In this document: positions 1,364 through 36,761 of the stretch, piece by piece | Numbering within the stretch: the stretch's first letter is position 1 | How the letters are laid out: each line of letters begins with the position of its first letter | NCBI GenBank assembly: GCA_040290225.1 | Contig: PSMS01000001.1 | Coordinates: 1-48,655 of the forward strand | Source: Patescibacteria group bacterium | GTDB lineage: Bacteria > Patescibacteriota > Minisyncoccia > UBA6257 > HR35 | DNA length: 48,655 nt | Direction of reading: 5' to 3' | Translations under genes and position numbers: made by a program | Notes under the pieces: generated by a model | Database searches by the model: none | Told to the model about the DNA's origin: nothing | The model's input: the letters and a program-made list of their open reading frames with translations, nothing else

Positions 1364-1887
1364 TAATCTTTGTAATTTTTGTAAGCTTTTTCTATTAACT
1401 CAATTGCTTTATTTTTTCCAAACCAATCCTTAACCCTAACCCATTTTCCTGGCTCCAGGCTTTTGTAATTTTCAAAAAAGTGTTTAATTTTATTTTTAAT
1501 AGCTTCGGGAAGTTGATCAATATCTTCATAAGATCCCTCAATTGGATCAATTTTTTTAACAGGAACAGCTATAATTTTTTCATCAAAGCCTCCTTCATCT
1601 TCCATCAGTAAAACTCCTATTGGTTTAGTTTTAATTACTGAACCTGGAAAAACAGAAAAATCACAAATAATTAAAACATCAACAGGATCTCCATCATCAG
1701 CTAATGTTCGTGGAATAAAACCATAATTGAAAGGATAAACCATAGCTGTGTGTAAAAATCTATCAACAAAAATTATTCCCAATTCTTTATCTAATTCATA
1801 TTTAACGCCTGTATCTTTAGGTATTTCGACAACTACATAAAATTCTTCAAAATTTTTTAAATCCTTATTAATTTCTGAATATTTCAT
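1363..1887 (-). CDS. ppa: Inorganic pyrophosphatase (family I)
   Basis: [33 protein letters not shown] and a 174-aa length are typical of family I PPases. Confidence 0.93.
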
Positions 1888-1916
1888 TTTTTAAAAATTT
1901 TTTAATTAAGACCTTT

Positions 1917-3020
1917 TTATTGCTTAGTTTCTGGTTCAGCTGTTCCTCCTTCAATAAATTCTTCTGGCTTGTTTGCTAATCTTACTTCTATTTTCCAGCC
2001 AGTCAATTTAGCAGCTAATTTGATATTTTGTCCTTTTGTTCCAATAGCTAAAGGTAAATTAGCTTCGTCAACTAAAACAAGCATAGTCCTTTTAAGCATT
2101 TGTCTAACCTCAATTACTTTAGCTGGAAGTAAGGCATTAGCTACATATTTTGTTGGCTCTTCATCCCAAGGAATTATATCTATTTTTTCATTATTAAGCT
2201 CATTCATTATCGAAATAATTCTAGCACCCTTAGCTCCTATACAAACACCAACTGGATCAATATTTGGCGAATTCGAATAAACAGCCATTTTTGTTCTTAC
2301 ACCCGGTTCTCGAGCTACTCCTTTAATTTCAACAATTCCTTCAGCTATTTCAGGAACTTCAAAGGTAAAAATAGCTGGAATAAAAAAAGGATGAGCCCTT
2401 GAAAGAAAAATTTTTACTCCTTGAGGAGTATTTTCAACAGCATAAACATAAAATCTCATTTTTTGACCATTTCGATAGTTTTCACCAGGAATTGTTTCAT
2501 TCTTATACATAATTCCTAAAATTTTTCCTAAATTAACTAAAATATTTCCTTGAGGATCTTTTTTTTCAATTGTTCCTGAAACAATTTTTCCTTCTTTATT
2601 TTTAAATTCATCGTATAAAGTCATTTTTTCTGCTTCTCTTATTTTTTGAATGACAACTTGTTTAGCTACTTGGGCAGCTATTCGACTAAAAGATTCAATT
2701 GGAGGTAAATCAAAAAATATTTCTTCTCCACATTTAACATTTGGATTAATTTTTTGAGCTTCTTCAAGCATAATATGTTTTTGGGAATCAAATTTTACTT
2801 CTTGAAGTTCTTCTGGACAAACAACTGTTTTAACTAAATAAAACTTTATTTCACCTGTTGGTGTTTTCTTAGCTTTTACAACAGAATCTTTTAAATTATT
2901 ATCTCGTCGATAAGCACTGGCTAAAGCATTCAAAAAGACCTCTTCAACTGTTTCTAAGGAAAGATTATGAATTTCAGCTATTTGTTGAAGAAAGTTTTGA
3001 ACTTGTTTTATGTTAATCAT
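1917..3020 (-). CDS. nusA: Transcription termination/antitermination factor NusA
   Basis: N-terminal domain, S1 domain (GKIVSGTIEKKD...) and two KH domains (DPVGVCIGAKGARI, LAIGTKGQNIKLAAKLTGWKIEV). Confidence 0.93.
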   Translation of the reverse strand: MINIKQVQNFLQQIAEIHNLSLETVEEVFLNALASAYRRDNNLKDSVVKAKKTPTGEIKFYLVKTVVCPEELQEVKFDSQKHIMLEEAQKINPNVKCGEEIFFDLPPIESFSRIAAQVAKQVVIQKIREAEKMTLYDEFKNKEGKIVSGTIEKKDPQGNILVNLGKILGIMYKNETIPGENYRNGQKMRFYVYAVENTPQGVKIFLSRAHPFFIPAIFTFEVPEIAEGIVEIKGVAREPGVRTKMAVYSNSPNIDPVGVCIGAKGARIISIMNELNNEKIDIIPWDEEPTKYVANALLPAKVIEVRQMLKRTMLVLVDEANLPLAIGTKGQNIKLAAKLTGWKIEVRLANKPEEFIEGGTAEPETKQ

Positions 3021-27796: not shown

Positions 27797-28876
27797 ATGA
27801 AAACAATGATCAATCAACAAAATAAAATAAAAATTAATAATGTAAAAAATTTAAATTTTAATACTGTCTACGAAGGAGTTGTTATTAATAAGAAAAAGGG
27901 AGAACTTTATGTTGATTTAAGTCCTTTTGGTATTGGCCGTCTTTTTGGTATGTACTATCTTCAATGCCAAGATATTGCTCAAAAAGTAAATGTTGGTGAT
28001 AAAATTGGTGTTCAAATTATTGGTTTAGATGATAGCTATGGTAATTTAAAAATTATTCTTAAAGATATAAGACAAATAGATAAGTGGCAAAGAATTTTAG
28101 AGTGTCAACAAAGCAAAAAAATTTTAGAACTTGAACCAAAAGAAGCTAACAGAGGAGGATTAATAATTGAATTAGAAGGAATTCAAGGGTTTTTGCCTGT
28201 TTCCCAATTAACGCCAGAAAATTATCCTCGGGTAATTAGTAATAATAAAGATCAAATTCTAGATCATTTAAAAAAATTAATTGGTAAAAAACTTCAAGTA
28301 AGAATTTGGATTGCTGATCCGGTAAAAAATAAATTAGTATTTTCTGAAAAATTAGCTAAACAAGAAATTTACGAAAAAATTTTATCTCAATTTCAGGTTG
28401 GACAAATAATTGAGGTAAAAGTTGTCGGTTATGGTCCTTTTGGTCTTTTTGTTAGATTTCACGAAAATCCAGCTATGGATGGTTTAATTCATCTTTCAGA
28501 AATACCAAACGAATTAGCTTCAGATTTACAAACTAATTTCCCCTTAGGTAAAGTAATAAAAGCAAAGTTAGTTCAATTAAAAATCGATAAAGTTAATTTT
28601 ACTCTTAAAGACTTAAGACCAGATCCTTGGTTATTTATTGAAGACTACTTCAAAGAAAATAATGTTACTAAAGGAATCTTGAAAGAAAAAAATAATATTT
28701 TTGGTGTGGTAGAAGTAAAGGTTGCTGATATTGGAGAAATAAATGGTTTTGTTTTTGAAGGAATAGAAAATTTAGAAATAGGGAAAGAATATGATTTCTT
28801 AATTGAAAAAATTAATCCGAAAGAGAGAAACCTTATTTTAAAACCAGTAGAAAATGCTCAAATCAGACAAAATTAA
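27797..28876 (+). CDS. rpsA: S1 RNA-binding-domain repeat protein (short ribosomal protein S1-like)
   Basis: Four S1-like units, e.g. YEGVVINKKKGELYVDLSPFGIGRL, GLIIELEGIQGFLPVSQL, VGQIIEVKVVGYGPFGLFVRF...GLIHLSEI and TKGILKEKNNIFGVVEV. Confidence 0.75.
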   Translation: MKTMINQQNKIKINNVKNLNFNTVYEGVVINKKKGELYVDLSPFGIGRLFGMYYLQCQDIAQKVNVGDKIGVQIIGLDDSYGNLKIILKDIRQIDKWQRILECQQSKKILELEPKEANRGGLIIELEGIQGFLPVSQLTPENYPRVISNNKDQILDHLKKLIGKKLQVRIWIADPVKNKLVFSEKLAKQEIYEKILSQFQVGQIIEVKVVGYGPFGLFVRFHENPAMDGLIHLSEIPNELASDLQTNFPLGKVIKAKLVQLKIDKVNFTLKDLRPDPWLFIEDYFKENNVTKGILKEKNNIFGVVEVKVADIGEINGFVFEGIENLEIGKEYDFLIEKINPKERNLILKPVENAQIRQN

Positions 28877-30662
28877 ATATTTAGTTATCTTACTTTCTTT
28901 ATTTTTATTTTTGTTCATTTTACTTACCGGTGAAAGAAAAATAAATGAATCAAGAGAAATTTCTTTTGTTTATTTTTTAGAACAAGTAAAAAATAATCAA
29001 GTCAAAGAAATAAATTTAAAATCTGAAAATGAAATAATTTTTAAAACAAAAAATAATGAAATTTTTATAACCTCTAAAGATCCAAATTCAAGTTTATGGG
29101 AAATTTTTGATAAAGAAAAAATTCCTAAAGAAAATTATTTAAAAATAAAAATTTCAAAAATAGATGGAAGTGATTGGAAACAAATTTTAATAACTTTAAT
29201 TGTTAATTTTGTTCCTGTAATAATTATTGGTTGGCTTCTTTGGCAAATATTTAAACAAACACAAAGAGGCGCGAGTCAAATTCTATCCTTTGGTAAATCA
29301 GGAATAAAGGTTTATGACCCTAATGATCCAAATCGAGTTACTTTCAAAGATGTTGCTAATTTAGAAGAAGCAAAACAAGAATTACAAGAGGTTATTGAAT
29401 TTTTAAAAAATCCTGAAAAATTTCTAAAAATTGGAGCTAGAATTCCAAGAGGAGTTTTATTAGTAGGAGCGCCGGGAACCGGAAAAACGCTTTTAGCACG
29501 CGCTTGTGCTGCCGAAGCCGGTGTTTTATTTTTTTATATCTCTGGTTCTGAATTTGTTGAACTCTTTGCTGGAATTGGTGCAAGTAGAGTTCGCGATGCT
29601 TTTGCTGTTGCCAAAAAAAATCAACCTTGCATTTTATTCATTGATGAATTGGATGCTATTGGAAGAGTCAGAGGATCAGGAATTAGTGGTGTTCATGAAG
29701 AAAGAGAACAAACATTAAATCAAATTTTAGTTGAAATGGATGGATTTGAAAAAACAACAAAAGTGGTAGTTCTGGCAGCTACTAATCGTCCTGATGTTTT
29801 GGATCCAGCTCTTTTAAGACCAGGAAGGTTTGATCGAAAAATAGTTTTAGATTTACCTGATATTAAAGCCAGGGAAGAAATTTTGAAAATTCATTTAAAA
29901 GATAAAAAGGTAGGAAAAATTAATTTAAAACAAATTGCGCAAAGAACTCCTGGATTTTCAGGAGCAGATTTAGCTAATTTATGCAATGAGGCTGCAATTT
30001 TGGCTGCCCGAAGAAATAAAGAATATATCACTCAAAAAGAATTATTAGATGCTATTGAAAAAGTTTTATTAGGACCAGAAAGAAAAACAAAAGTTTATAC
30101 TAAAAAAGAAAAAGAAATTGCTGCTTATCATGAAGCTGGTCACGCTATTGTTGCTCATTATCTTCCTTATGCTAGTAAAGTTCAAAAAGTTTCAATTATT
30201 GCCCGTTCCCGTGCTGGTGGTTATACTCTCAAACTACCAACTGAAGAAAAGAACTTTTATTTCAAAAAAGAATTTTTAGATGAATTAGCTTCAATTTTGG
30301 GCGGTTATGCTGCTGAAAAATTAATTTTTAAAGATGTAACTACTGGAGCCCAAAATGACTTAGAAATTGCTACTAATTTAGCTAAACAATTAGTTATTCG
30401 TTTTGGAATGTCAGAAAAATTAGGACCAGTTTCTTTTACAAAATCTCAAACTCCTTTACTCGAATTTTATGAAAGAGAATTTTCAGAAAAAACAGCAGAA
30501 ATCATTGACGAAGAAGTTAGAAATTTAATCAATCAAGCTCTTGAAAGAGCAACTAAAGTTTTAGAAGAAAGAAAAGAAAAATTAGAAAAAGTTGCTCAAG
30601 TTTTGATCAAAAAAGAAGTCATCGAAAAAAAAGAATTTGAAAGACTCCTTGCCTCCAATTAA
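28854..30662 (+). CDS. ftsH: ATP-dependent zinc metalloprotease FtsH
   Basis: Two N-terminal TMs, Walker A GAPGTGKT, Walker B ILFIDELD, the second region of homology ATNRPDVLDPALLRPGRFDR, and HEAGHA. Confidence 0.95.
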   Translation: MLKSDKIKYLVILLSLFLFLFILLTGERKINESREISFVYFLEQVKNNQVKEINLKSENEIIFKTKNNEIFITSKDPNSSLWEIFDKEKIPKENYLKIKISKIDGSDWKQILITLIVNFVPVIIIGWLLWQIFKQTQRGASQILSFGKSGIKVYDPNDPNRVTFKDVANLEEAKQELQEVIEFLKNPEKFLKIGARIPRGVLLVGAPGTGKTLLARACAAEAGVLFFYISGSEFVELFAGIGASRVRDAFAVAKKNQPCILFIDELDAIGRVRGSGISGVHEEREQTLNQILVEMDGFEKTTKVVVLAATNRPDVLDPALLRPGRFDRKIVLDLPDIKAREEILKIHLKDKKVGKINLKQIAQRTPGFSGADLANLCNEAAILAARRNKEYITQKELLDAIEKVLLGPERKTKVYTKKEKEIAAYHEAGHAIVAHYLPYASKVQKVSIIARSRAGGYTLKLPTEEKNFYFKKEFLDELASILGGYAAEKLIFKDVTTGAQNDLEIATNLAKQLVIRFGMSEKLGPVSFTKSQTPLLEFYEREFSEKTAEIIDEEVRNLINQALERATKVLEERKEKLEKVAQVLIKKEVIEKKEFERLLASN

Positions 30663-30768: not shown

Positions 30769-31554
30769 TTATTGATTACAACAAATCCTGGGATGACACC
30801 ATGTCCATGACGCATTGTAATCAGCCCCCTGAGTATAGGGACAAGTAGCTCCCCCTCCTCTGTCGTAAATATAACCACCCAGACCTTTATCTACCCAACC
30901 ATTAGGGCATGCATTAGCGAAGATGCAAAAAGGACCTTTCCCACCAGTAAATTTAAGTGTTCCATTAACCTCCAATCTTGCTGTAGGATTCGTCGTCCCG
31001 ATGCCAACGTTGCCAGTTGGTAAAATAGTCAATACTGAAACTATGTCTGGATACTTATAAAGGGAGAGTGAATTAGGTGGAACCCCCCATCCTCCACCAA
31101 CGGGTGCCGTCCACATTACCCATCTTATCGTACCCCCACCAGAACTTCTTGATTCCCATGCAAAACCAGCTAAACCTGGAGTATTATCATTAGCTGGGAA
31201 TGTTCTTGTTTTTATAACACCCTCTACATGTAATTTATCAGTGGGTGCCGTCGTCCCGATGCCAACGTTGCCGGAAATATAAAGATTATTTTGTCCTCTT
31301 ATATCACCAGCAACATCTAATCTATATTGTGGATTCGTCGTCCCGATGCCAACGTTGCCGTTTTGAACAACCAAATTTCCTGAATTAACAATCGTGCTTG
31401 TTGTTAAAATTAATGGGAAACTGCTTCCTGGTTGAGTTTGAATTAAGCCGCCACCAGAAGGAGGATTTGATGTTGGATTAACCCAAGCATACAAAAAATA
31501 ATAATTTAAAGAAACTAATATTCCTAATAAAAATCCAATTATCAATCCTCTCAT
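30769..31554 (-). CDS. Exported GNVGIGTT-repeat protein (tail-fibre-like repeats) with a Cys-rich C-terminal domain
   Basis: N-terminal hydrophobic anchor MRGLIIGFLLGILVSLNYYFLYA, then WVNPTSNPPSGG. Three repeats follow: GNVGIGTT(N/A)P...(K/R)L.V. The C-terminus CIFANACPNGW...CPYTQG...WCHPRICC has 6 Cys. GC content is visibly higher than in neighbouring genes. Confidence 0.7.
   Translation of the reverse strand: MRGLIIGFLLGILVSLNYYFLYAWVNPTSNPPSGGGLIQTQPGSSFPLILTTSTIVNSGNLVVQNGNVGIGTTNPQYRLDVAGDIRGQNNLYISGNVGIGTTAPTDKLHVEGVIKTRTFPANDNTPGLAGFAWESRSSGGGTIRWVMWTAPVGGGWGVPPNSLSLYKYPDIVSVLTILPTGNVGIGTTNPTARLEVNGTLKFTGGKGPFCIFANACPNGWVDKGLGGYIYDRGGGATCPYTQGADYNASWTWCHPRICCNQ
30986..31359. repeat. 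Three perfect copies of CGTCGTCCCGATGCCAACGTTGCC (30991-31014, 31249-31272, 31336-31359); copies 1 and 3 are identical over 29 nt
   Basis: Read directly. Spacings of 258 and 87 nt are both multiples of 3. On the coding strand the repeat is GGC AAC GTT GGC ATC GGG ACG ACG. Confidence 0.9.
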
Positions 31555-31689
31555 TTTTTACAATTATATAAAAAGACAATATTATTTCAAATATTTTATG
31601 TTGAAAAAATTTAAAAAATACCTCCTTAAAAATAGTCTAAAAATGTGGTAAAATTATTATTAATTTGATTTTTTTATTTTGGGACAAAA

Positions 31690-33609
31690 ATGATAAATAA
31701 AAGCTCATCTTATAAAGCAGAAGATATTCAAGTTTTAGAAGGAATAGAGGCTGTTAGAAAAAGACCAGGAATGTATATTGGAGGAACAGGTCTTGATGGC
31801 TTACATCATTTAATTTGGGAAGTAGTCAATAATTCTTTTGATGAAGCTTTAGCTGGTTATGTAAAAAATATTGAAGTAAGAATAGAAAAAGAAAATAGAG
31901 TTGTAGTTATTGATGATGGTCGCGGTATTCCTGTTGATATTCATCCTAAAACAAAAAAATCTGCTCTGGAAACTGTTTTAACAATGCTTCATGCTGGAGG
32001 AAAATTCAATCAAAAAACCTACAAGATATCAGGAGGTCTTCACGGAGTTGGTGTTTCAGTTGTTAATGCTTTATCTAAATATTTAAAAGCAATTATTAAA
32101 AGGGATGGTTATGAATGGAGACAAGAATATAAAAAGGGAAGACCAATAACAGCTCTAGAAAAAATAAGAAAGACAACTGAAACCGGAACAACTATTATTT
32201 TTGAACCTGATCCTGAAATTTTTCCAGAAATAAAATTTGATCGTCAAAAAATTTTAGAATATTTACGGCATCAAGCTTATTTAACTCCAGGAGTAAGAGT
32301 AAATTTTATTGATGAAAGAGATAAAGAACCATTTTATTATAGTTTTTATTTTGAAAAAGGTCTTCAAGTTTTTATTAAACATTTAGTTAATGGAAGACAT
32401 TTATTGTTTAACGATTTTATTGAAATTTATGATAAAAGTGAAAATTATGAACTTGGAATAATTTTTACTTATTTAGAGCACCAAGAAACAATTGAATATA
32501 CTTTTACCAATAATATTATTAATCCTGAAGGAGGAACTCATTTACAAGGATTTCGTTCTGGACTTTTAAAAGCTGTTTTAAAAGTTGGTGAAGAATTAAA
32601 TTTATTGAAAAATAAAAATAATGTTAATTTGACAATTGAAGATTTAAGAGGTGGTTTGGTTTTAATTTTGTCTTTAAAAATTCCTGAACCTCAATTTGAA
32701 GGACAAACAAAATCAAAACTGGGAAATCCTGAAGTAAAAAGTTTAGTTGAAAATATTGTTTTTTCAAAAACTGAAGAATGGTTTCATAAAAATCAAGATA
32801 AAGCAAAATTAATTATTAATAGAATCTTAACAAATTTTGAGGCAAGAAAAGCAGCTAAACAAGCAAAAGAAGCTGTTTTGAAAAAAAGAATTCAAAGTAA
32901 TTTAGTTTTATCAGGAAAATTAGCTGATTGTTCTTCAAAAGATCCAGAAAAAAGAGAATTATTTATTGTTGAAGGTGATTCAGCTGGTGGTTCAGCAAAG
33001 CAGGCAAGAGATCGAACCCTCCAAGCTGTTTTGCCTTTAAGAGGAAAAATTTTAAATGTTGAAAAAGCAAGTATGATAAAAATTTTACAATCTCAAGAAA
33101 TTAAAAATTTAATTATAGCTTTGGGAACTGGTTTTGGTAAAGATTTTAATTTAGAAAATTTAAGATATTCAAAAATAATTATTGCTACTGATGCGGACAC
33201 AGACGGTTCTCATATTAGAACTTTGCTTTTAACACTATTTTACAGATATTTTAGACCGATAATTGAAAATGGTCATCTTTTTATTGCTCAACCTCCACTT
33301 TACAAAATTAAAATCGGAAAAGAAACTTATTACGCCTATAATGATTCTGAAAAAGAAAAAATTGTTAATGAATTAAATAAGAAAAAACAAAATATTGAAA
33401 TTCAAAGATATAAAGGATTAGGAGAAATGAATCCTCAAGAACTTTGGGAAACAACTTTGAATCCTGAAAAAAGGGTTTTAAAACAAGTAACAATTAAAGA
33501 TGCTGAAGAAGCCGATAAATTATTTTCAATTTTAATGGGCCAAGATGTTGAACCTCGAAAAAAGTTTATCGAAAATTACGCCTCAGAAGTTCAAAATTTG
33601 GATATTTAA
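31690..33609 (+). CDS. gyrB: DNA gyrase subunit B
   Basis: LEGIEAVRKRPGMYIGG, HHLIWEVVNNSFDEA, GGLHGVG, the Toprim motif EGDSAGGSA, and DADTDGSHI. Confidence 0.96.
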   Translation: MINKSSSYKAEDIQVLEGIEAVRKRPGMYIGGTGLDGLHHLIWEVVNNSFDEALAGYVKNIEVRIEKENRVVVIDDGRGIPVDIHPKTKKSALETVLTMLHAGGKFNQKTYKISGGLHGVGVSVVNALSKYLKAIIKRDGYEWRQEYKKGRPITALEKIRKTTETGTTIIFEPDPEIFPEIKFDRQKILEYLRHQAYLTPGVRVNFIDERDKEPFYYSFYFEKGLQVFIKHLVNGRHLLFNDFIEIYDKSENYELGIIFTYLEHQETIEYTFTNNIINPEGGTHLQGFRSGLLKAVLKVGEELNLLKNKNNVNLTIEDLRGGLVLILSLKIPEPQFEGQTKSKLGNPEVKSLVENIVFSKTEEWFHKNQDKAKLIINRILTNFEARKAAKQAKEAVLKKRIQSNLVLSGKLADCSSKDPEKRELFIVEGDSAGGSAKQARDRTLQAVLPLRGKILNVEKASMIKILQSQEIKNLIIALGTGFGKDFNLENLRYSKIIIATDADTDGSHIRTLLLTLFYRYFRPIIENGHLFIAQPPLYKIKIGKETYYAYNDSEKEKIVNELNKKKQNIEIQRYKGLGEMNPQELWETTLNPEKRVLKQVTIKDAEEADKLFSILMGQDVEPRKKFIENYASEVQNLDI

Positions 33610-34171
33610 AGAATTTCCTTATTTTGCTTTTAGTTTTTTATTAGCTATTTTTTATTTATTAAAAATTATTTCTAATTGGTTCTTTTTTCTTCCCTTAATT
33701 TTATCCTTTTTTATTTCTTGGCACTTTAGAAGTTCGTTCTTTCAATCATTTTTGTTTTTTTCTTTTTATTTAATTCTTTATCTTCACCCAACAATTAATT
33801 TTTTTATTTTTTTCATTTTAGTTTTCTTTTCTTCTTATTTTTATTTTAAAAAATTAAAGTATTCTGATTTTTGCTTAGTTTTAATTAATAGTTTTTATTT
33901 AAATTATTTGTTATTTAAAGCTAATTTCAGTTTTAATCTAATCTTTTTAATTTTTCTTTTATTTTTAACTTATTATTTTTACTTTTTCGGAAATAAAAAA
34001 CTTGAAGAATCAATCATTTCGGTTATAATATTTTTAGAATTCTTTTTAATTTTTTATCTCAACAATTTTAATTTTTACCTTTTTACTTTTTTGATTTTTT
34101 TAATTCTTTATCTTTTACGATTTAAGCTAAATTTTATTATAATTAACAATAATGAAGGAAAGAAAAATTAA
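33545..34171 (+). CDS. Polytopic Phe/Leu-rich membrane protein, unknown function (start uncertain; the track start overlaps the gyrB 3' end by 65 nt)
   Basis: A 208-codon open frame in a very T-rich stretch. About 6 hydrophobic segments. No recognisable motif. Confidence 0.4.
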
Positions 34172-34766
34172 AAACCAACTAGTTCCAATTGTTATCGAAA
34201 AAACCCCTCAAGGTGAAAGAGCTTACGATATTTATTCAAGACTTTTGAAAGAAAGAATTGTTTTTTTAGGAACTCCAATCACTGATGAGATAGCTAATTT
34301 AATAATTGCTCAACTTTTATTTCTTGAACATGAAGATGCCGAAAAACCAATTTATTTTTACATCAATAGTCCAGGAGGAGATGTTAGTGCTGCTTTAGCT
34401 ATTTATGATACAATGCAATATATCAAATCAGAAGTTCATACTATTGGGATAGGTCTTGTTGCTTCAGCGGCAGCAATTTTAATGGCAGCCGGAGCTAAAG
34501 GAAAAAGATTTTCATTACCAAATACCGAATTTTTAATTCATCAAGTAATTGTTGCTCCTCCGGGAATATCTGGTCAAGTAAAAGATGTTGAAATTATGAC
34601 CAATCAATTAATTAAAATAAAAAACAAAGTAAATAATATTTTGGCTAAGCACACTGGGCAACCTTTAGAAAAAATAGAGAAAGATACTGATCGAGATTTT
34701 TGGATGTCAGCCCAAGAAGCTAAAGATTATGGTTTGATTGATAAAATTATTGAAAAAAGGGCTTAA
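34152..34766 (+). CDS. clpP: ATP-dependent Clp protease proteolytic subunit
   Basis: [41 protein letters not shown] (Ser nucleophile) and LIHQ. Confidence 0.95.
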
Positions 34767-34778
34767 ATATTAAATTTA

Positions 34779-34787
34779 TGTTATAAT
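34779..34787 (+). promoter_or_regulatory. Extended -10 element TGtTATAAT, 10 nt upstream of tRNA-Asp
   Basis: tatgTTATAATaattttgtt, then GCGGGCG. I see no good -35. Confidence 0.35.
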
Positions 34788-34796
34788 AATTTTGTT

Positions 34797-34870
34797 GCGG
34801 GCGTAGCTCAGTCGGTTAGAGCGCCGGCCTGTCACGCCGGAGGTCGCCGGTTCAAGTCCGGTCGCCCGCG
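34797..34870 (+). tRNA. tRNA-Asp (anticodon GUC)
   Basis: GCGGGCGTAGCTCAGTCGGTTAGAGCGCCGGCCTGTCACGCCGGAGGTCGCCGGTTCAAGTCCGGTCGCCCGCG. The anticodon loop is CT-GTC-AC. Confidence 0.9.
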
Positions 34871-34874
34871 CTTG

Positions 34875-34946
34875 GCGCGCGTAGCTCAGTGGTAGAGCGC
34901 GGTCCTGATAAGACCGAGGTCGGAGGTTCGATCCCTCCCGCGCGCA
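34875..34946 (+). tRNA. tRNA-Ile (anticodon GAU)
   Basis: GCGCGCGTAGCTCAGTGGTAGAGCGCGGTCCTGATAAGACCGAGGTCGGAGGTTCGATCCCTCCCGCGCGCA. The anticodon loop is CT-GAT-AA. Confidence 0.9.
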
Positions 34947-34947
34947 T

Positions 34948-35032
34948 GCCCGGGTGGCGGAATTGGCAGACGCAGCAGACTTAAAATCTGCTGGCCCTAT
35001 GGGCCGTGAGGGTTCGAGTCCCTCCCCGGGCA
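34948..35032 (+). tRNA. tRNA-Leu (anticodon UAA), long variable arm
   Basis: GCCCGGGTGGCGGAATTGGCAGACGCAGCAGACTTAAAATCTGCTGGCCCTATGGGCCGTGAGGGTTCGAGTCCCTCCCCGGGCA. The anticodon loop is CT-TAA-AA. Confidence 0.9.
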
Positions 35033-35045
35033 CATTCTAATTTAA

Positions 35046-35798
35046 ATGAAAAAATTTTTAATAATTTTATTTATTTTAATTGTTGTTTTGACTATAATAT
35101 TTTTGATTATTAATTTTAAAAGTAAAAAAATGGAGGTAAAGAAAATTGATTTTTTAACTTCAGATGGAGTAAAAATAGTTGCCAATTATTACCCAAATAA
35201 AAATGCTAAATTTGCTGGAATTTTAATTCATATGAGACCAAAAACAAAAGAAAGCTATGAAAAATTTGCTCGTTATTTACAAGAAAAAAATTTCAGTTTA
35301 CTAGCTTTAGATTTAAGAGGCCATGGAGAAAGTAGAGAATCTCCATGGGGCTATTTAGATTACAATCAATTTTCTGAAGATGAAGAAAAAAAATCAATTA
35401 AAGACCTAGAAGCAGCTAGTAATTTTTTAGAGAAAGAAGGTTTTTCTCAGGAAAGACAATTTTTAGTTGGTGCTAGCATCGGAGCTAATCTTTCCTTTCA
35501 ATTTATATCTGAAAACGAAAAAATAAAAGCAGCTGTTTTGCTTTCTCCTGGTTATAATTATCGAGGAATAATTTTAGACAATTTTTATAAAAAAGGTTTA
35601 GATAATAAATTAATGATTATTTCCTCGAAAGATGATCAAGAAATGGCTTTGAGGGGTTTTAACTGGTTTAAAGAAAAATATCCAAGCTCAACATTTATTT
35701 TTTTAGAAAAAGGTGGACATGGAACAAATTATTTTGATTTTTATCCAGAATTAATGGATAAAATTTATTCCTGGCTTTTAGAAAAACTATCTTTGTAA
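35046..35798 (+). CDS. Membrane-anchored alpha/beta-fold hydrolase
   Basis: N-terminal TM (FLIILFILIVVLTIIFLII), LDLRGHGES, nucleophile elbow GASIGAN, and a C-terminal GGHG. Confidence 0.7.
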   Translation: MKKFLIILFILIVVLTIIFLIINFKSKKMEVKKIDFLTSDGVKIVANYYPNKNAKFAGILIHMRPKTKESYEKFARYLQEKNFSLLALDLRGHGESRESPWGYLDYNQFSEDEEKKSIKDLEAASNFLEKEGFSQERQFLVGASIGANLSFQFISENEKIKAAVLLSPGYNYRGIILDNFYKKGLDNKLMIISSKDDQEMALRGFNWFKEKYPSSTFIFLEKGGHGTNYFDFYPELMDKIYSWLLEKLSL

Positions 35799-35821
35799 AA
35801 AATTAATTTCTATGTTATAAT
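35793..35821 (+). promoter_or_regulatory. Sigma70-type promoter candidate: TTGTAA-17 nt-TATAAT with an extended -10 TG
   Basis: cTTGTAAaaaattaatttctaTGtTATAATt. It lies about 90 nt upstream of the small zinc-ribbon ORF. Confidence 0.45.
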
Positions 35822-35840
35822 TTATTTAACCTCTTCAAAT

Positions 35841-35863
35841 CTCTCTAAAAATTTTTTAGAGAG
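35841..35863. promoter_or_regulatory. Perfect 11+1+11 palindrome CTCTCTAAAAA-T-TTTTTAGAGAG in the putative 5' UTR
   Basis: Read directly. It is not followed by a T-tract on either strand, so it is not a canonical intrinsic terminator. Confidence 0.4.
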
Positions 35864-35909
35864 AAATAATGGGGAGGAAGGTCGTAAAAGTAAAAAATAT
35901 GAGGGGAAA

Positions 35910-36068
35910 ATGAGACCAATGCAAAAAAGAAAAATGTATACTCCTAGGGAAGGAGAAACCTGGATTTGTGCTAAATGTGGGAAGCCCATTGATTCACTTC
36001 CTTTTGTTCCTTCCAAGGACAGGCCAGTCTATCACAGGGAATGCCTTCCTCCTCGGGAAAATAGATAG
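35910..36068 (+). CDS. Small (52 aa) basic zinc-ribbon protein, CxxC...HxxC (below the ORF track size cutoff)
   Basis: My translation is MRPMQKRKMYTPREGETWICAKCGKPIDSLPFVPSKDRPVYHRECLPPRENR. GAGGGG lies just upstream of the ATG, and local GC is elevated. The pattern CxxCGxxxxxLPFxPxxxRPVYxxxC recalls a stand-alone or helicase-appended zinc ribbon. Confidence 0.55.
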   Translation: MRPMQKRKMYTPREGETWICAKCGKPIDSLPFVPSKDRPVYHRECLPPRENR

Positions 36069-36761
36069 TTATTTAAAATAAATTTTTTTGGGAATTCGAA
36101 GATCTATTCTTTTTATTGATCCTAAAGATTTTTTCTTTTCATATTGGAGGAAAATATAAAGTTTTTTAATTTGTTCCTCAATGTCTTTATTTGGATCTAA
36201 AAGGTAAATTCTGTTGTTTTTGTCTAAAAAACTTAGATCAAAGTTTGAATAGATAGTAATTTCTTTTATAGGAAAATTATAAAAATTTGAAAACTCAAAT
36301 AGCAAACTGAAAAGTTTAGTTAATTTTGGATTGAGCAAAGAATTGTTTTTAATTGACTTGTAAGAAACAATTTTTATTTTTTTTCCATCATCAAAATTAA
36401 TATCTAAAATTCTTCCATAATTGTCTAAATAAAAAATTTTATTATTCCTTTTATCATAAATTTGAGCAATTATTTCGCTTTTTTTAATTTTTACTATCAA
36501 TTTTCTATTCCAAAAATCAGGAATTAATTCAGCACTTATAATTTCCTTATTTTCCTTTAAGAATTTTTTAAGATTTAAAATAACAATTAAGGGACTTTTA
36601 TTTAAAAAGTATTTTTCTGCTAATTTTTCTATTTCTGGAGGATCTACTTGAATTTTAGTGATTTTAAAAAATAATAAAGAGTATAATAAAATTATTGTTA
36701 GCGAAATATAGAATAAAAAATTAAAAATTTTTGAAAATTTATTTTTTCTTTTCTTTTTCAT
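36069..36761 (-). CDS. ftsQ: FtsQ/DivIB-like cell-division protein (TM + POTRA-like)
   Basis: Basic N-terminus, TM (IFNFLFYISLTIILLYSLLFF), then a beta-rich ectodomain (KITKIQVD..., YLDNYGRIL, RIDLRIPKKIYF). Confidence 0.55.
   Translation of the reverse strand: MKKKRKNKFSKIFNFLFYISLTIILLYSLLFFKITKIQVDPPEIEKLAEKYFLNKSPLIVILNLKKFLKENKEIISAELIPDFWNRKLIVKIKKSEIIAQIYDKRNNKIFYLDNYGRILDINFDDGKKIKIVSYKSIKNNSLLNPKLTKLFSLLFEFSNFYNFPIKEITIYSNFDLSFLDKNNRIYLLDPNKDIEEQIKKLYIFLQYEKKKSLGSIKRIDLRIPKKIYFK

What the first reader, a model, noticed from the sequence alone, without database searches (positions are those of the whole stretch)
30769..31554. Single-gene GC-rich island encoding a GNVGIGTT-repeat tail-fibre-like exported protein with perfectly conserved nucleotide repeats
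This gene is visibly richer in G+C than everything around it except the tRNAs; I estimate about 45% against under 30% by eye. It sits alone between a convergent (ftsH) and a divergent (gyrB) intergenic region. The protein has an N-terminal anchor followed by WVNPTSNPPSGG and three GNVGIGTT(N/A)P..(K/R)L.V repeats. That motif is characteristic of phage tail-fibre and spike-like proteins. A C-terminal domain has 6 Cys. The 24-nt core of each repeat is identical in all three copies, including every synonymous site, and copies 1 and 3 are identical over 29 nt. The core uses GC-ending codons (GGC, ATC, GGG, ACG) that are atypical for this genome. This argues for recent horizontal acquisition, for ongoing intragenic gene conversion, or for selection at the nucleotide level. 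The repeats could also be a recombination substrate for length or phase variation.
Basis: partly seen in the sequence, partly recalled or inferred. Interest (0 to 1): 0.6.

Follow-up and report, generated by a model that had tools for sequence, protein, structure and literature searches.

The report
Surface fibre gene with shared DNA joints
A tiny bacterium's 261-residue surface fibre protein, related to phage tail fibres, carries three letter-identical copies of a 24-base GC-rich DNA word that also occurs in fibre genes of distant bacteria, archaea and viruses and that marks where fibre segments get swapped.

Summary
ORF 30769-31554(-) encodes a 261-aa protein. It has 41.5% GC against 27.3% for the genome and lies between ftsH and gyrB. 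It contains three letter-identical 24-nt cores.

The "GC island" is mostly amino-acid composition: 76% of the excess comes from Gly/Thr/Pro richness. After correcting for composition, only the three cores are clearly abnormal (21 of 24 GC-ending codons, 2.9 expected).

The whole gene was not recently imported. Its N-terminal part uses native codons. The same front end lies next to gyrB in a 99.6%-identical strain and in another genus.

The protein is a small member of the MAT / phage-tail-fibre beta-helix superfamily (Bdellovibrio Bd2133, E=8e-8). The repeats are its "capping loops". It ends in a rare 6-Cys tip.

The 24-mer occurs in at least 240 loci of bacteria, archaea and viruses. In an unbiased sample, silent-site sameness is confined to these eight or nine codons. 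Near-identical sequences break at these units, including between this genome and its sister strain.

All copies here share a private C-to-T change, which points to short-tract gene conversion.

Most likely reading: an in-frame recombination joint for swapping adhesin modules.

The parts
30769..31554 (-). Complete fibre gene, 261 codons plus stop
   Evidence: It is the only member of its 90% cluster.
31563..31590 (-). Promoter-like site TTGAAA-16-TATAAT. The -10 box ends 8 nt before the ATG and no Shine-Dalgarno sequence is visible, which suggests a leaderless or near-leaderless mRNA.
   Evidence: 11 of 12 consensus matches. The number of sites in the region is not above the shuffled expectation, so this is weak evidence.
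31480..31551 (-). N-terminal hydrophobic helix, residues 2-25 (signal-anchor or signal peptide)
   Evidence: AlphaFold helix 2-25 with pLDDT about 82; sequence.
31447..31488 (-). Conserved leader motif A-W-V-N-P-T-S-N-P-P-S-G-G-G, residues 23-36
   Evidence: The same motif follows the helix in 21 of 120 homologues of similar length and in the gyrB-linked orthologue of genus G402.
31336..31359 (-). Core 1: 24-nt word GGCAACGTTGGCATCGGGACGACG (GNVGIGTT, residues 66-73)
31309..31359 (-). Capping-loop unit 1 (GNVGIGTTNPQYRLDVA). Identity with the sister strain ends at its 3' edge, window position 31309.
   Evidence: L005 is 99.57% identical to window 36167..31309 and unrelated beyond; own-genome contig C24 ends on the same 27 nt.
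31249..31272 (-). Core 2: the same 24-nt word (residues 95-102)
30967..31272 (-). Beta-helix module bounded by capping loops 2 and 3 (residues 95-196)
   Evidence: Aligns with Bd2133 residues 135-233, PDB 8OND. Many giant homologues match query residues 93-205 as one unit. pLDDT is 57-93.
30991..31014 (-). Core 3: the same 24-nt word (residues 181-188). Identical to copy 1 over 29 nt.
30772..30966 (-). C-terminal tip domain with six Cys (residues 197-261)
   Evidence: Found in only about 12 proteins. In each it directly follows a capping loop, on three kinds of stalk. pLDDT is 68-88. No Pfam, NCBIfam or PDB match specific to the tip.

Best explanation
The gene encodes a small fibre held in the membrane by an N-terminal helix. 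It belongs to the superfamily that includes Bdellovibrio MAT (mosaic adhesive trimer) fibres and S74-type phage tail fibres.

Protein layout:
- a leader;
- two short beta-helix modules bounded by three "capping-loop" motifs (GNVGIGTTxPxxKLxV);
- a rare 65-residue tip with six cysteines.

It most likely forms a trimer on the cell surface and binds a ligand on another cell (inferred).

The GC "island" is mainly Gly/Thr/Pro-rich composition plus the three cores.

Each core is the lineage's copy of a 24-nt spelling that fibre genes share widely across bacteria, archaea and viruses. The word is in frame and lies at a boundary where modules can be joined without breaking the fold. At 24-30 nt it is about the shortest identity that RecA-type recombination uses efficiently (my own knowledge of the E. 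coli minimal processing segment). RecA is present in this genome.

I read the word as a crossover and gene-conversion site. Modules are exchanged there between paralogues, strains and probably phages. Short conversion tracts keep the word identical and GC-rich inside an AT-rich gene.

Shown here:
- the word's identity and its wide distribution;
- silent-site sameness confined to the core;
- breakpoints at the units;
- a module swap between two strains;
- a private variant shared by all copies in this lineage.

Inferred:
- that recombination actually starts at the word;
- that identity is kept by conversion or selection and not by repeated import;
- trimer formation and adhesion.
For: Protein:
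- PDB sequence hits: Bd2133 (8OND, E=8.3e-8) and the Bd3182 fibre entries 8OJN/8ONB/8ONC (chain deposited as 'Cell wall surface anchor family protein', E=0.006). The capping loops align with each other.
- That motif is described as the capping loop of MAT fibres in PMC10769870.
- AlphaFold model with a 59-sequence alignment: mean pLDDT 76.5.
- The top 14 Foldseek PDB hits are all MAT fibres, best E=2.8e-6. BFVD gave 137 viral hits at E<=1e-3, mostly S74 tail fibres.

Not a whole-gene import:
- Composition-adjusted silent-site GC is native in the N-terminal and middle parts.
- Synteny with gyrB in a 99.57%-identical strain and in genus G402.

The DNA word:
- The exact 24-mer (C or T at base 9) occurs in at least 120 genome loci (CPR, DPANN, Gammaproteobacteria, Planctomycetes, methanogens and others) and at least 120 viral contigs.
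- In five other genera of this AT-rich family, cores have silent-site GC of 0.88-1.0 inside genes whose flanks have 0.16-0.27.
- Unbiased viral sample of any spelling (242 copies, 119 loci): core silent-site GC 0.38 against 0.26 expected from the same amino acids in the flanks (p=1e-6 per locus).
- Within genes, excess codon sharing occurs only at codon offsets 0-8. There is none at the conserved Pro(+9), Leu(+13) or Val(+15).

Breakpoints:
- Identity between the window and L005 stops at the end of unit 1.
- L007 and L363 are 100% identical over the last 558 nt of the gene, starting at the first base of a core, and the match continues into the 3' flank with two small gaps (96.5% over 849 nt); upstream they are unrelated.
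- 12 of 23 between-locus alignment endpoints lie within 30 nt of a core, against 11% expected (p=1.4e-6). For within-locus endpoints it is 21 of 30 against 20%.

Concerted evolution:
- All three copies here, and both copies in L005, carry GTT. Family relatives carry GTC.
- Only 10 of 374 canonical copies elsewhere have T, and they are scattered, mostly as single copies.
- None of the other 21 GC-ending sites in the three cores has changed.

RecA is present.
Against: - No recombination event has been observed directly.
- The mosaic junctions come from metagenome assemblies. Contigs that end in these repeats (C1, C24 and C28 in this genome; L005; G402:C8) show that assemblers struggle here, so some junctions could be chimeric. 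The L005 junction follows a 51-nt shared unit.
- Breakpoints at module borders could reflect protein-level selection against misfolded hybrids, not a DNA-level preference for crossing over there.
- Many fibre genes use AT-rich spellings of the same motif. These include paralogues in this genome (C24, C28), genera G413, G417 and G408, and the Nanoarchaeales locus L006. The word is therefore not needed for function.
- Selection for evolvability is weak in theory. GC-biased conversion or repeated import could maintain the word without any "purpose".
- Foldseek TM-scores are low (0.2-0.45), as expected for a monomer model of an intertwined trimer.
Confidence: 0.6

Rival explanations
1. Recent horizontal acquisition of the whole gene from a GC-richer donor (phage or another bacterium). 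On this reading the GC content and the odd codons are the donor's signature, not yet worn down.
For: - The gene is 0.415 GC in a 0.273 genome.
- Homologues are common in viral contigs.
- The C-terminal tip shows a modest silent-site GC excess (0.29 against 0.17 expected, z=3.1).
Against: - 76% of the GC excess is predicted from the amino-acid sequence with native codons (0.378 expected, 0.262 mean CDS).
- The N-terminal 65 codons and residues 103-180 have native silent-site GC. Residues 74-94 are below expectation.
- The front of the gene is next to gyrB in a 99.57%-identical strain and in another genus.
- No mobility genes or phage genes are adjacent.
Confidence: 0.07
2. The word is kept for a translation or RNA-level reason. 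For example, a cluster of rare codons could slow the ribosome at each capping loop so that the beta-helix or trimer folds while being made. Recombination at the word would then be a side effect.
For: - In this genome, 7 of the 8 core codons are rare (2.8-12.9% of their families).
- The effect is confined to the eight or nine codons of the loop.
- Fibre folding is known to be demanding. S74 chaperone domains exist in this superfamily (PMC10769870).
Against: - The same spelling is used in loci of 40-60% GC, where these codons are not rare. The median GC of loci carrying the word is 0.44-0.47.
- Many functional-looking genes spell the motif with common AT-rich codons, including paralogues in this genome.
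- A rare-codon need would be met by many spellings, yet one spelling dominates: 12 of 150 in the phylum sample against 0.48 expected under site independence.
- No Rfam match.
Confidence: 0.08
3. The word is spread and homogenised by a selfish element. Inteins or homing nucleases that target the GNVGIGTT junction would cut the word, and repair from an occupied copy would co-convert the flanking bases. Later loss of the element would leave the canonical GC-rich spelling behind.
For: - Earlier notes of this scan report inteins at exactly this repeat junction in giant fibre genes of other CPR and archaeal genomes. I did not verify them.
- The idea would explain a word of foreign composition with sharp edges that is shared across domains of life.
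Against: - No intein or nuclease gene lies in or near this gene.
- None of the roughly 400 loci I held has a core interrupted after GNVGIG.
- A scan of 151 genomes of the same class gave one hit, and it was a chance match in an unrelated membrane protein.
- The insertion point relative to the word is unknown to me.
Confidence: 0.1
4. The spread of the word simply reflects a very large, fast-duplicating gene family plus GC-biased gene conversion among copies. The apparent breakpoints are assembly artefacts at repeats. The word has no role as a joint.
For: - The family is huge: 43,187 representative clusters at E<=1e-3, many with 20-56 repeats each.
- Core silent-site GC is raised generally, not only in the canonical spelling.
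- Contigs often end at these repeats.
Against: - GC bias alone predicts dozens of equally likely all-GC spellings, but one dominates.
- The flanks of 344 distinct canonical copies carry almost no silent-site information (0.17 bit at the adjacent Pro codon), so these are not recent whole-module duplicates. This rests on an ascertained set; one search gives the unbiased version.
- L363 is a Logan contig. Logan assembles with k=31 (my own knowledge), and the repeat it shares with L007 upstream of the junction is only 25-27 nt, too short to cause a k-mer chimera.
Confidence: 0.13

Closest known systems
Bdellovibrio bacteriovorus MAT (mosaic adhesive trimer) fibres: Bd2133 (8OND), Bd3182 (8OJN/8ONB/8ONC), Bd1334 (8OML), Bd2439 (Caulton et al. 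2024, PMC10769870)
   Same: - Sequence homology of the module bounded by capping loops (E=8.3e-8).
- The same capping-loop motif.
- The top 14 Foldseek PDB hits.
- A mosaic design with exchangeable, non-homologous C-terminal tips.
- A chromosomal gene of a bacterium that lives on other bacteria, not a virion part.
   Different: - Size: 261 aa against roughly 1000 aa.
- Anchored by an N-terminal membrane helix with a CPR-typical A-W-x-x-P-x3-PP leader.
- The tip is a 65-residue six-Cys domain not among the described MAT tips (S74, two beta-sandwiches, TNF-like, C-type lectin).
- In my term search the paper's only two uses of 'recombination' were in its methods, and I saw no mention of DNA-level conservation of the loop codons.
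Conserved-motif recombination in T-even phage distal tail-fibre genes: His boxes of gp37 and glycine-rich motifs of gp38 (Tetart, Desplats & Krisch 1998, J Mol Biol; title found in 30 papers)
   Same: Short conserved motifs inside fibre or adhesin genes act as in-frame crossover points that swap receptor-binding segments. Here, breakpoints coincide with the motifs.
   Different: - That system operates among closely related phages.
- Here one exact 24-nt spelling recurs in cellular genes of bacteria and archaea and in viruses, in genomes from 28% to 65% GC.
- It sits in a chromosomal gene between ftsH and gyrB.
S74-type phage tail fibres and spikes (K1F endosialidase 3GW6, T5 L-shaped fibre 4UW8; Pfam PF13884 Peptidase_S74)
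   Same: - Beta-helix fibre fold with the same loop motif.
- Several sequence homologues carry PF13884.
- Many BFVD fold hits are S74 proteins.
- PHROG tail-fibre families are matched.
   Different: - No S74 chaperone or protease domain (no Pfam hit).
- No phage genes nearby.
- Membrane-anchored.
Cassette-based surface variation by gene conversion (Neisseria pilE/pilS, Borrelia vlsE) - analogy from my own knowledge
   Same: Short conserved DNA blocks flank variable segments of a surface protein and guide segmental conversion from other copies.
   Different: No silent cassette array or dedicated machinery is seen here. The donors appear to be paralogues, other strains and possibly phages.

Membership tests
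MAT / tail-fibre-like beta-helix fibre superfamily | Capping-loop motif (GNVGIGTTxPxxKLxV type) at the edges of beta-helix modules | tested here: met
   Three copies are present. They align with the loops of Bd2133 and Bd3182. The motif is described in PMC10769870.
MAT / tail-fibre-like beta-helix fibre superfamily | Significant sequence similarity to a solved member | tested here: met
   8OND_A E=8.3e-8; 8OJN_C E=0.006
MAT / tail-fibre-like beta-helix fibre superfamily | Fold similarity of the fibre region | tested here: met
   Foldseek PDB: the top 14 hits are all MAT fibres, probability 0.90-1.00, best E=2.8e-6. TM-scores are only 0.2-0.45 because a monomer model is compared with chains of an intertwined trimer.
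MAT / tail-fibre-like beta-helix fibre superfamily | Homotrimeric fibre assembly | not testable with these tools
   Only a monomer prediction was possible.
MAT / tail-fibre-like beta-helix fibre superfamily | Exchangeable C-terminal tip (S74 or non-S74) | tested here: met
   This is a non-S74 tip. The same six-Cys tip follows three different stalk types in 12 proteins. No PF13884 hit.
Phage tail fibre (virion component of a phage or prophage) | Located among phage structural or assembly genes | tested here: not met
   The neighbours are ftsH and gyrB. The same locus is kept in relatives.
Phage tail fibre (virion component of a phage or prophage) | Match to tail-fibre protein families | tested here: met
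   phrog_9942 7.8e-14, phrog_3269 4e-13, phrog_18345 3.5e-10. All matches go through the roughly 30-residue repeat units only. Pfam Phage_T4_gp36 scored only E=0.16, below its cut-off.
Recently acquired genomic island | Atypical codon usage over the whole gene after allowing for amino-acid composition | tested here: not met
   Silent-site GC z-scores: 0.8 (residues 1-65), -1.0 (74-94), 1.3 (103-180), 3.1 (189-261). All non-core codons give z=2.6, which 7% of the genome's ORFs reach. Only the cores are extreme, z=11.4.
Recently acquired genomic island | Absent from the same locus in relatives; flanked by mobility genes or tRNA | tested here: not met
   A gyrB-linked orthologous front end is present in L005 and in G402. 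No mobility genes are adjacent.
Conserved-motif recombination joints of fibre genes (T-even type) | Motif conserved at the DNA level beyond what the protein requires | tested here: met
   Excess codon sharing occurs only at offsets 0-8 and not at the conserved Pro, Leu or Val codons nearby. P=1.6e-9 per copy under genome codon usage.
Conserved-motif recombination joints of fibre genes (T-even type) | Similarity breakpoints between related genes coincide with the motif | tested here: met
   Window against L005, and L007 against L363. 12 of 23 between-locus endpoints lie within 30 nt of a core, against 11% expected. Caveat: these are metagenome assemblies.
Conserved-motif recombination joints of fibre genes (T-even type) | Recombinants observed to arise at the motif | not testable with these tools
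No experiment was possible.
Contingency locus (phase variation by repeat slippage) | Tandem short repeats whose copy number shifts the reading frame or promoter spacing | tested here: not met
   The repeats are dispersed, with start-to-start spacings of 87 and 258 nt, both in frame. They are not tandem.

The most novel reading that the evidence does not exclude
The 24-nt word is a "public" in-frame junction standard for fibre genes, shared across bacteria, archaea, phages and giant viruses. It would be maintained actively, by selection for exchangeability, by biased short-tract conversion, or by junction-homing inteins or nucleases.

On this reading, ultra-small episymbiotic bacteria such as this one re-tool their attachment fibre by taking ready-made modules from neighbours and viruses at this word. 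This 261-aa gene, with a strain-level swap at its first joint and a private variant homogenised over all copies, would be a minimal and tractable example.
Probability: 0.3. Interest if true: 0.8.

Novelty: new variant of a known kind. Interest (0 to 1): 0.6.

Why it matters
How ultra-small, host-dependent Patescibacteria recognise and hold their hosts is largely unknown beyond type IV pili. A 261-residue, membrane-anchored fibre with a small disulfide-rich tip is a simple candidate adhesin that could be expressed and solved.

At the DNA level, one exact 24-base spelling is kept at silent sites in AT-rich genomes and recurs in cellular and viral fibre genes of all kinds. This suggests that module exchange in adhesins and tail fibres runs through a common, sequence-defined joint.

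If confirmed, it would explain how fibre mosaics arise across very distant hosts. It would also give a practical rule for finding module borders in the thousands of unannotated giant fibre genes.

I found no paper describing this DNA-level feature in the library I could search. Earlier notes of this scan report the same word in other genomes, so this window is a further, unusually compact case and not the first sighting.

Tried and rejected
- Pfam and NCBIfam gave nothing significant.
- A single-sequence AlphaFold run was useless (mean pLDDT 35). The 59-row alignment was needed.
- A full-text search for the motif strings found no paper.
- Rfam found no RNA family in the GC-rich stretch.
- A metagenome scan with an exact 30-mer from the conserved N-terminal coding part found nothing.
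- A degenerate pattern for the tip peptide WTWCHPRICC found only two JGI contigs, L404 (the L007 contig) and the 1791-nt contig L405, and no viral contig. The tip is rare and so far only cellular.
- I searched for intein-interrupted cores. None occurred in about 400 held loci. A scan of 151 same-class genomes gave one match, which was a chance hit in a membrane protein.
- I rejected whole-gene horizontal transfer, amino-acid composition or chance as the explanation of the cores, recent tandem duplication of whole repeat units (the flanks are unrelated and the adjacent Pro codons all differ), and frameshift-type phase variation.
- A site-independence null for the canonical spelling is too weak alone, because genomes differ in GC. 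I therefore added controls that use the same amino acids in the flanks of the same gene.
- One index slip (core 2 shifted by one codon) was corrected.
Full report
**1. What is in the sequence**

The minus-strand ORF 30769-31554 (261 aa, ATG start) is the only long ORF between ftsH (28854-30662,+) and gyrB (31690-33609,+). It is convergent with ftsH and divergent from gyrB.

A sigma-70-like TTGAAA-16-TATAAT site ends 8 nt before the ATG. No terminator-like site was found, and no Rfam family matches the region.

300-nt windows reach 0.44-0.45 GC inside the gene, against 0.20-0.31 around it. The whole assembly is 481,934 bases in 36 contigs, 27.3% GC and 99.6% complete. The record of a near-identical contig names it a Patescibacteria group bacterium.

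The core GGCAACGTTGGCATCGGGACGACG occurs three times without mismatch. None was found in 100 shuffles. Copies 1 and 3 agree over 29 nt.

**2. What the GC "island" is made of**

The gene is 0.415 GC. The mean for the genome's ORFs is 0.262. With native codon usage, the amino-acid sequence alone predicts 0.378. About three quarters of the excess is therefore composition: Gly 15.7% against 5.4%, Thr 9.6% against 3.9%, Pro 7.3% against 3.7%.

After correcting for amino acids, silent-site GC along the gene is as follows:

| Segment | Observed | Expected | z |
|---|---|---|---|
| Residues 1-65 | 0.18 | 0.15 | 0.8 |
| Residues 74-94 | 0.05 | 0.12 | -1.0 |
| Residues 103-180 | 0.23 | 0.18 | 1.3 |
| Tip, 189-261 | 0.29 | 0.17 | 3.1 |
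| Cores, 24 codons | 0.88 (21 GC-ending) | 0.12 (2.9) | 11.4 |

All non-core codons together give z=2.6, a value that 7% of the genome's ORFs reach.

Under genome codon usage, the probability of this spelling of GNVGIGTT is 1.6e-9 per copy.

Just outside the core, silent variation resumes. The next conserved residue, Pro, is CCA, CCC and CCT in the three copies.

So the odd feature is not the gene. It is three 24-nt words inside it.

**3. The gene is resident, its distal part is not fixed**

A contig of assembly GCA_040289145.1 (L005) is 99.57% identical to window 36167..31309 over 4860 nt. It covers gyrB and three further genes, and its fifth called gene (a 52-residue zinc-finger-like ORF) lies within the aligned stretch. 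The match ends at window position 31309. That is gene nt 246, the last base of the first capping-loop unit (GNVGIGTTNPQYRLDVA).

The next 219 nt of L005 have no match anywhere in this genome. The L005 contig then stops inside another copy of the same 24-mer.

In a different genus of the same family (G402), a homologous front end again lies divergently next to gyrB (75% identical GyrB). It reads MRKFLFGVLLGFFLSLAFSIFAWVNPPGNPPSGGG..., and its contig ends a few codons before the first core would begin.

The anchor and the locus are therefore inherited vertically, while what follows the first joint differs even between strains.

The own genome holds at least three more family members:
- C1 and C24 are cut by contig ends at or beside such units, and the reading frame on C28 also runs off its contig.
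- C24 ends on the same 27 nt (AATCCACAATATAGATTAGATGTTGCT) at which the window and L005 part.
- C24 and C28 spell the motif with AT-rich codons. C1 has a GC-rich variant.

**4. What the protein is**

The family is enormous. There are 43,187 representative clusters at E<=1e-3, many of them proteins of 2,000-7,700 residues with 20-56 matched stretches.

PHROG tail-fibre families match through the repeat units.

Against solved structures by sequence, the hits are Bdellovibrio Bd2133 (8OND, E=8.3e-8) and the Bd3182 fibre entries (8OJN and related entries, E=0.006). Query residues 94-206 align to Bd2133 135-233, loop on loop.

Caulton et al. (PMC10769870) describe these as "capping loops" on the edges of the beta-helix of mosaic adhesive trimeric (MAT) fibres. 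Those fibres have exchangeable tips: S74, beta-sandwiches, TNF-like, and C-type lectin.

With a 59-row alignment, AlphaFold gave mean pLDDT 76.5. The top 14 PDB fold hits are all MAT fibres. BFVD gave 137 hits at E<=1e-3, many of them S74 tail fibres of tailed phages, cyanophages and algal giant viruses.

Layout of the protein:
- helix, residues 2-25;
- a leader A-W-V-N-P-x3-P-P-x-G-G, shared by 21 of 120 similar-length homologues;
- loop 1, a 21-residue spacer, and loop 2;
- a beta-helix module of about 80 residues;
- loop 3;
- a 65-residue tip with Cys at 210, 216, 238, 253, 258 and 259.

The tip is rare. About 12 proteins carry it, two JGI contigs hold its signature peptide and no viral contig does. 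It always follows a capping loop directly, on beta-helix, coiled-coil or "INYQG"-type stalks. It matched nothing known.

The spacer segment YRLDVAGDIRGQNNLY[IV]SGNVGIGTT is shared with proteins of a Nanoarchaeales and a Thermoplasmata MAG. With the Nanoarchaeales locus the DNA is 74% identical over 152 nt.

**5. The word elsewhere**

The exact 24-mer (C or T at base 9) was found in at least 120 stretches of species-representative genomes and in at least 120 viral contigs, including giant-virus bins. The genomes include:
- many CPR lineages;
- Woese-, Pace-, Aenigm- and Nanoarchaeota;
- methanogens;
- Gammaproteobacteria, Planctomycetes, Elusimicrobia, Omnitrophica, Acidobacteria and Bacteroidia.

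The loci carrying the word span 28.5-65% GC, with medians of 0.47 and 0.44.

That set was chosen for the word, so I also made unbiased samples.

- **Phylum sample.** In 400 Patescibacteria genomes, 91 hold some spelling of GNVGIGTT. Of the 150 copies listed, from 49 genomes, the canonical 23-mer accounts for 12, in 9 genomes. Site independence predicts 0.48.
- **Viral sample.** A viral scan for any spelling gave 242 copies in 119 loci, with 202 distinct spellings.
  - Core silent-site GC is 0.38, against 0.26 expected from the same amino acids in the flanks of the same gene (per-locus Wilcoxon p=1.2e-6).
  - Pairs of cores in one gene share 5.5 of 8 third positions, against 3.3 expected (p=2e-11).
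- **Offset profile.** Excess codon sharing is present at codon offsets 0 to 8 only. At the equally conserved Pro(+9), Lys(+12), Leu(+13) and Val(+15) the observed value equals the expected one.
- **Family sample.** In this AT-rich family, five other genera (G401, G416, G432, G410, G411) carry the canonical spelling. Their cores have silent-site GC of 0.88-1.0, and the flanks have 0.16-0.27. Four genera use AT-rich spellings.

The phenomenon is therefore specific to the core, general to the family, and not obligatory.

**6. Breakpoints**

Besides the window/L005 case, L007 (a JGI contig, 40% GC) and L363 (a Logan contig from another sample) are 100% identical over the last 558 nt of the gene, starting at the first base of a core. 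The match continues into the 3' flank with two small gaps (96.5% over 849 nt in all). Upstream they are unrelated.

In an all-against-all comparison of the held loci (at least 150 nt and at least 93% identity), internal alignment endpoints were distributed as follows:

| Comparison | Endpoints within 30 nt of a core | Expected fraction | p |
|---|---|---|---|
| Between loci (13 pairs) | 12 of 23 | 11% | 1.4e-6 |
| Within loci | 21 of 30 | 20% | 4e-9 |

Several pairs belong to one related cluster of viral contigs, so the endpoints are not fully independent.

**7. Concerted evolution in this lineage**

Family relatives spell Val as GTC. All three copies here, and both copies in L005, have GTT.

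Among 374 canonical copies elsewhere, only 10 have T, and they are scattered, mostly as single copies.

None of the other 21 GC-ending sites of the three cores has changed. The flanks of the three copies are unrelated.

One change that then spread over the copies by short-tract conversion is the simplest account. Independent hits or duplication of whole units do not fit. RecA is encoded in the genome.

**8. Reading**

The best-supported account is this. It is a small MAT-type surface fibre, a probable adhesin of a host-dependent bacterium. Its module borders carry a widely shared DNA word that serves as an in-frame crossover and conversion site.

The protein identity is well supported. The recombination role rests on comparative patterns and on metagenome assemblies, and it remains an inference.

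Rivals, set out in their own sections:
- whole-gene import, largely refuted;
- translational pausing;
- spread by inteins or homing nucleases, a lead from earlier notes that I could not confirm;
- a null of GC-biased conversion plus assembly artefact.

**9. Relation to earlier notes of this scan**

Notes on other genomes describe the same 23-24-nt word and the same reading. I treated them as leads and repeated the key tests independently here.

This window adds four things:
- a very compact complete gene;
- a split of the GC signal into composition and cores;
- a strain-level swap at a chromosomal locus between two essential genes;
- the homogenised private variant.

**10. Limits**

- No trimer model could be made, and no separate model of the tip.
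- Statements about the minimal length for RecA-dependent recombination, and about Logan's k-mer size, are from my own knowledge.

Noticed in passing
G000 contigs C1:9603-9743, C24:1-105, C28:1610-2124: At least three more fibre-family genes exist in this 482-kb genome, and all three are truncated by contig ends. C1 stops about 60 nt after a core-like GC-rich word. C24 stops on the same 27 nt (…AATCCACAATATAGATTAGATGTTGCT) at which the window and its sister strain diverge. The true number and layout of paralogues is unknown.
   Followed up: partly
G000 C28:~1400-2124 (+): This paralogue has a signal-like N-terminus and two capping loops spelled with AT-rich codons. Its C-terminal part looks like an RCC1-type repeat (…GGDHTCALLSNGTVKCWGNN) before the contig ends. 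That would be a beta-propeller on a fibre stalk.
   Followed up: no
window 31555-31600 (-): A near-consensus promoter (TTGAAA-16-TATAAT) ends only 8 nt before the ATG, and no Shine-Dalgarno sequence is visible. The fibre mRNA may be leaderless.
   Followed up: no
window 31447-31488 (-); proteins P0005, P0010, P0013, P0020, P0042 and others: A conserved N-terminal leader (membrane helix, then A/F-W-[TV]-[NEA]-P-x3-P-P-x-G-[GN]) heads 21 of 120 homologues of similar length. It matches no library family. It may be a CPR-specific export or anchoring signal.
   Followed up: partly
L006:3834-3985 (Nanoarchaeales MAG) against window 31208-31359: The two-loop segment YRLDVAGDIRGQNNLY[IV]SGNVGIGTT is shared with proteins of a Nanoarchaeales and a Thermoplasmata MAG. 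With the Nanoarchaeales locus the DNA is 74% identical over 152 nt. The archaeal copy spells the cores with AT-rich codons.
   Followed up: partly
G000 C26:71-1429 (-): A 452-aa ORF at a contig start has GC 0.43 and silent-site GC 0.37 (z=14 against genome usage). Its sequence looks like a Ser/Thr protein kinase (HRDIKPSN, DFG) followed by membrane helices. It may be foreign DNA or a binning contaminant.
   Followed up: no
G000 C8:1-9636 and C9:83-461: ORFs with 50-53% GC and silent-site GC of 0.5-0.67 are far outside the genome's range. They are probably spurious frames over an rRNA operon. I did not check.
   Followed up: no
window 30991-31014, 31249-31272, 31336-31359: The lineage-specific C-to-T change turns part of the word into the 8-nt palindrome CAACGTTG. 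This is probably incidental, since GTT is the genome's preferred Val codon (72%).
   Followed up: no
L365:281-661: In one contig carrying a tip-domain homologue (P0005), the gene just upstream hits PF05635 (23S rRNA intervening-sequence protein). Earlier notes of this scan link that family to inteins in fibre genes.
   Followed up: no
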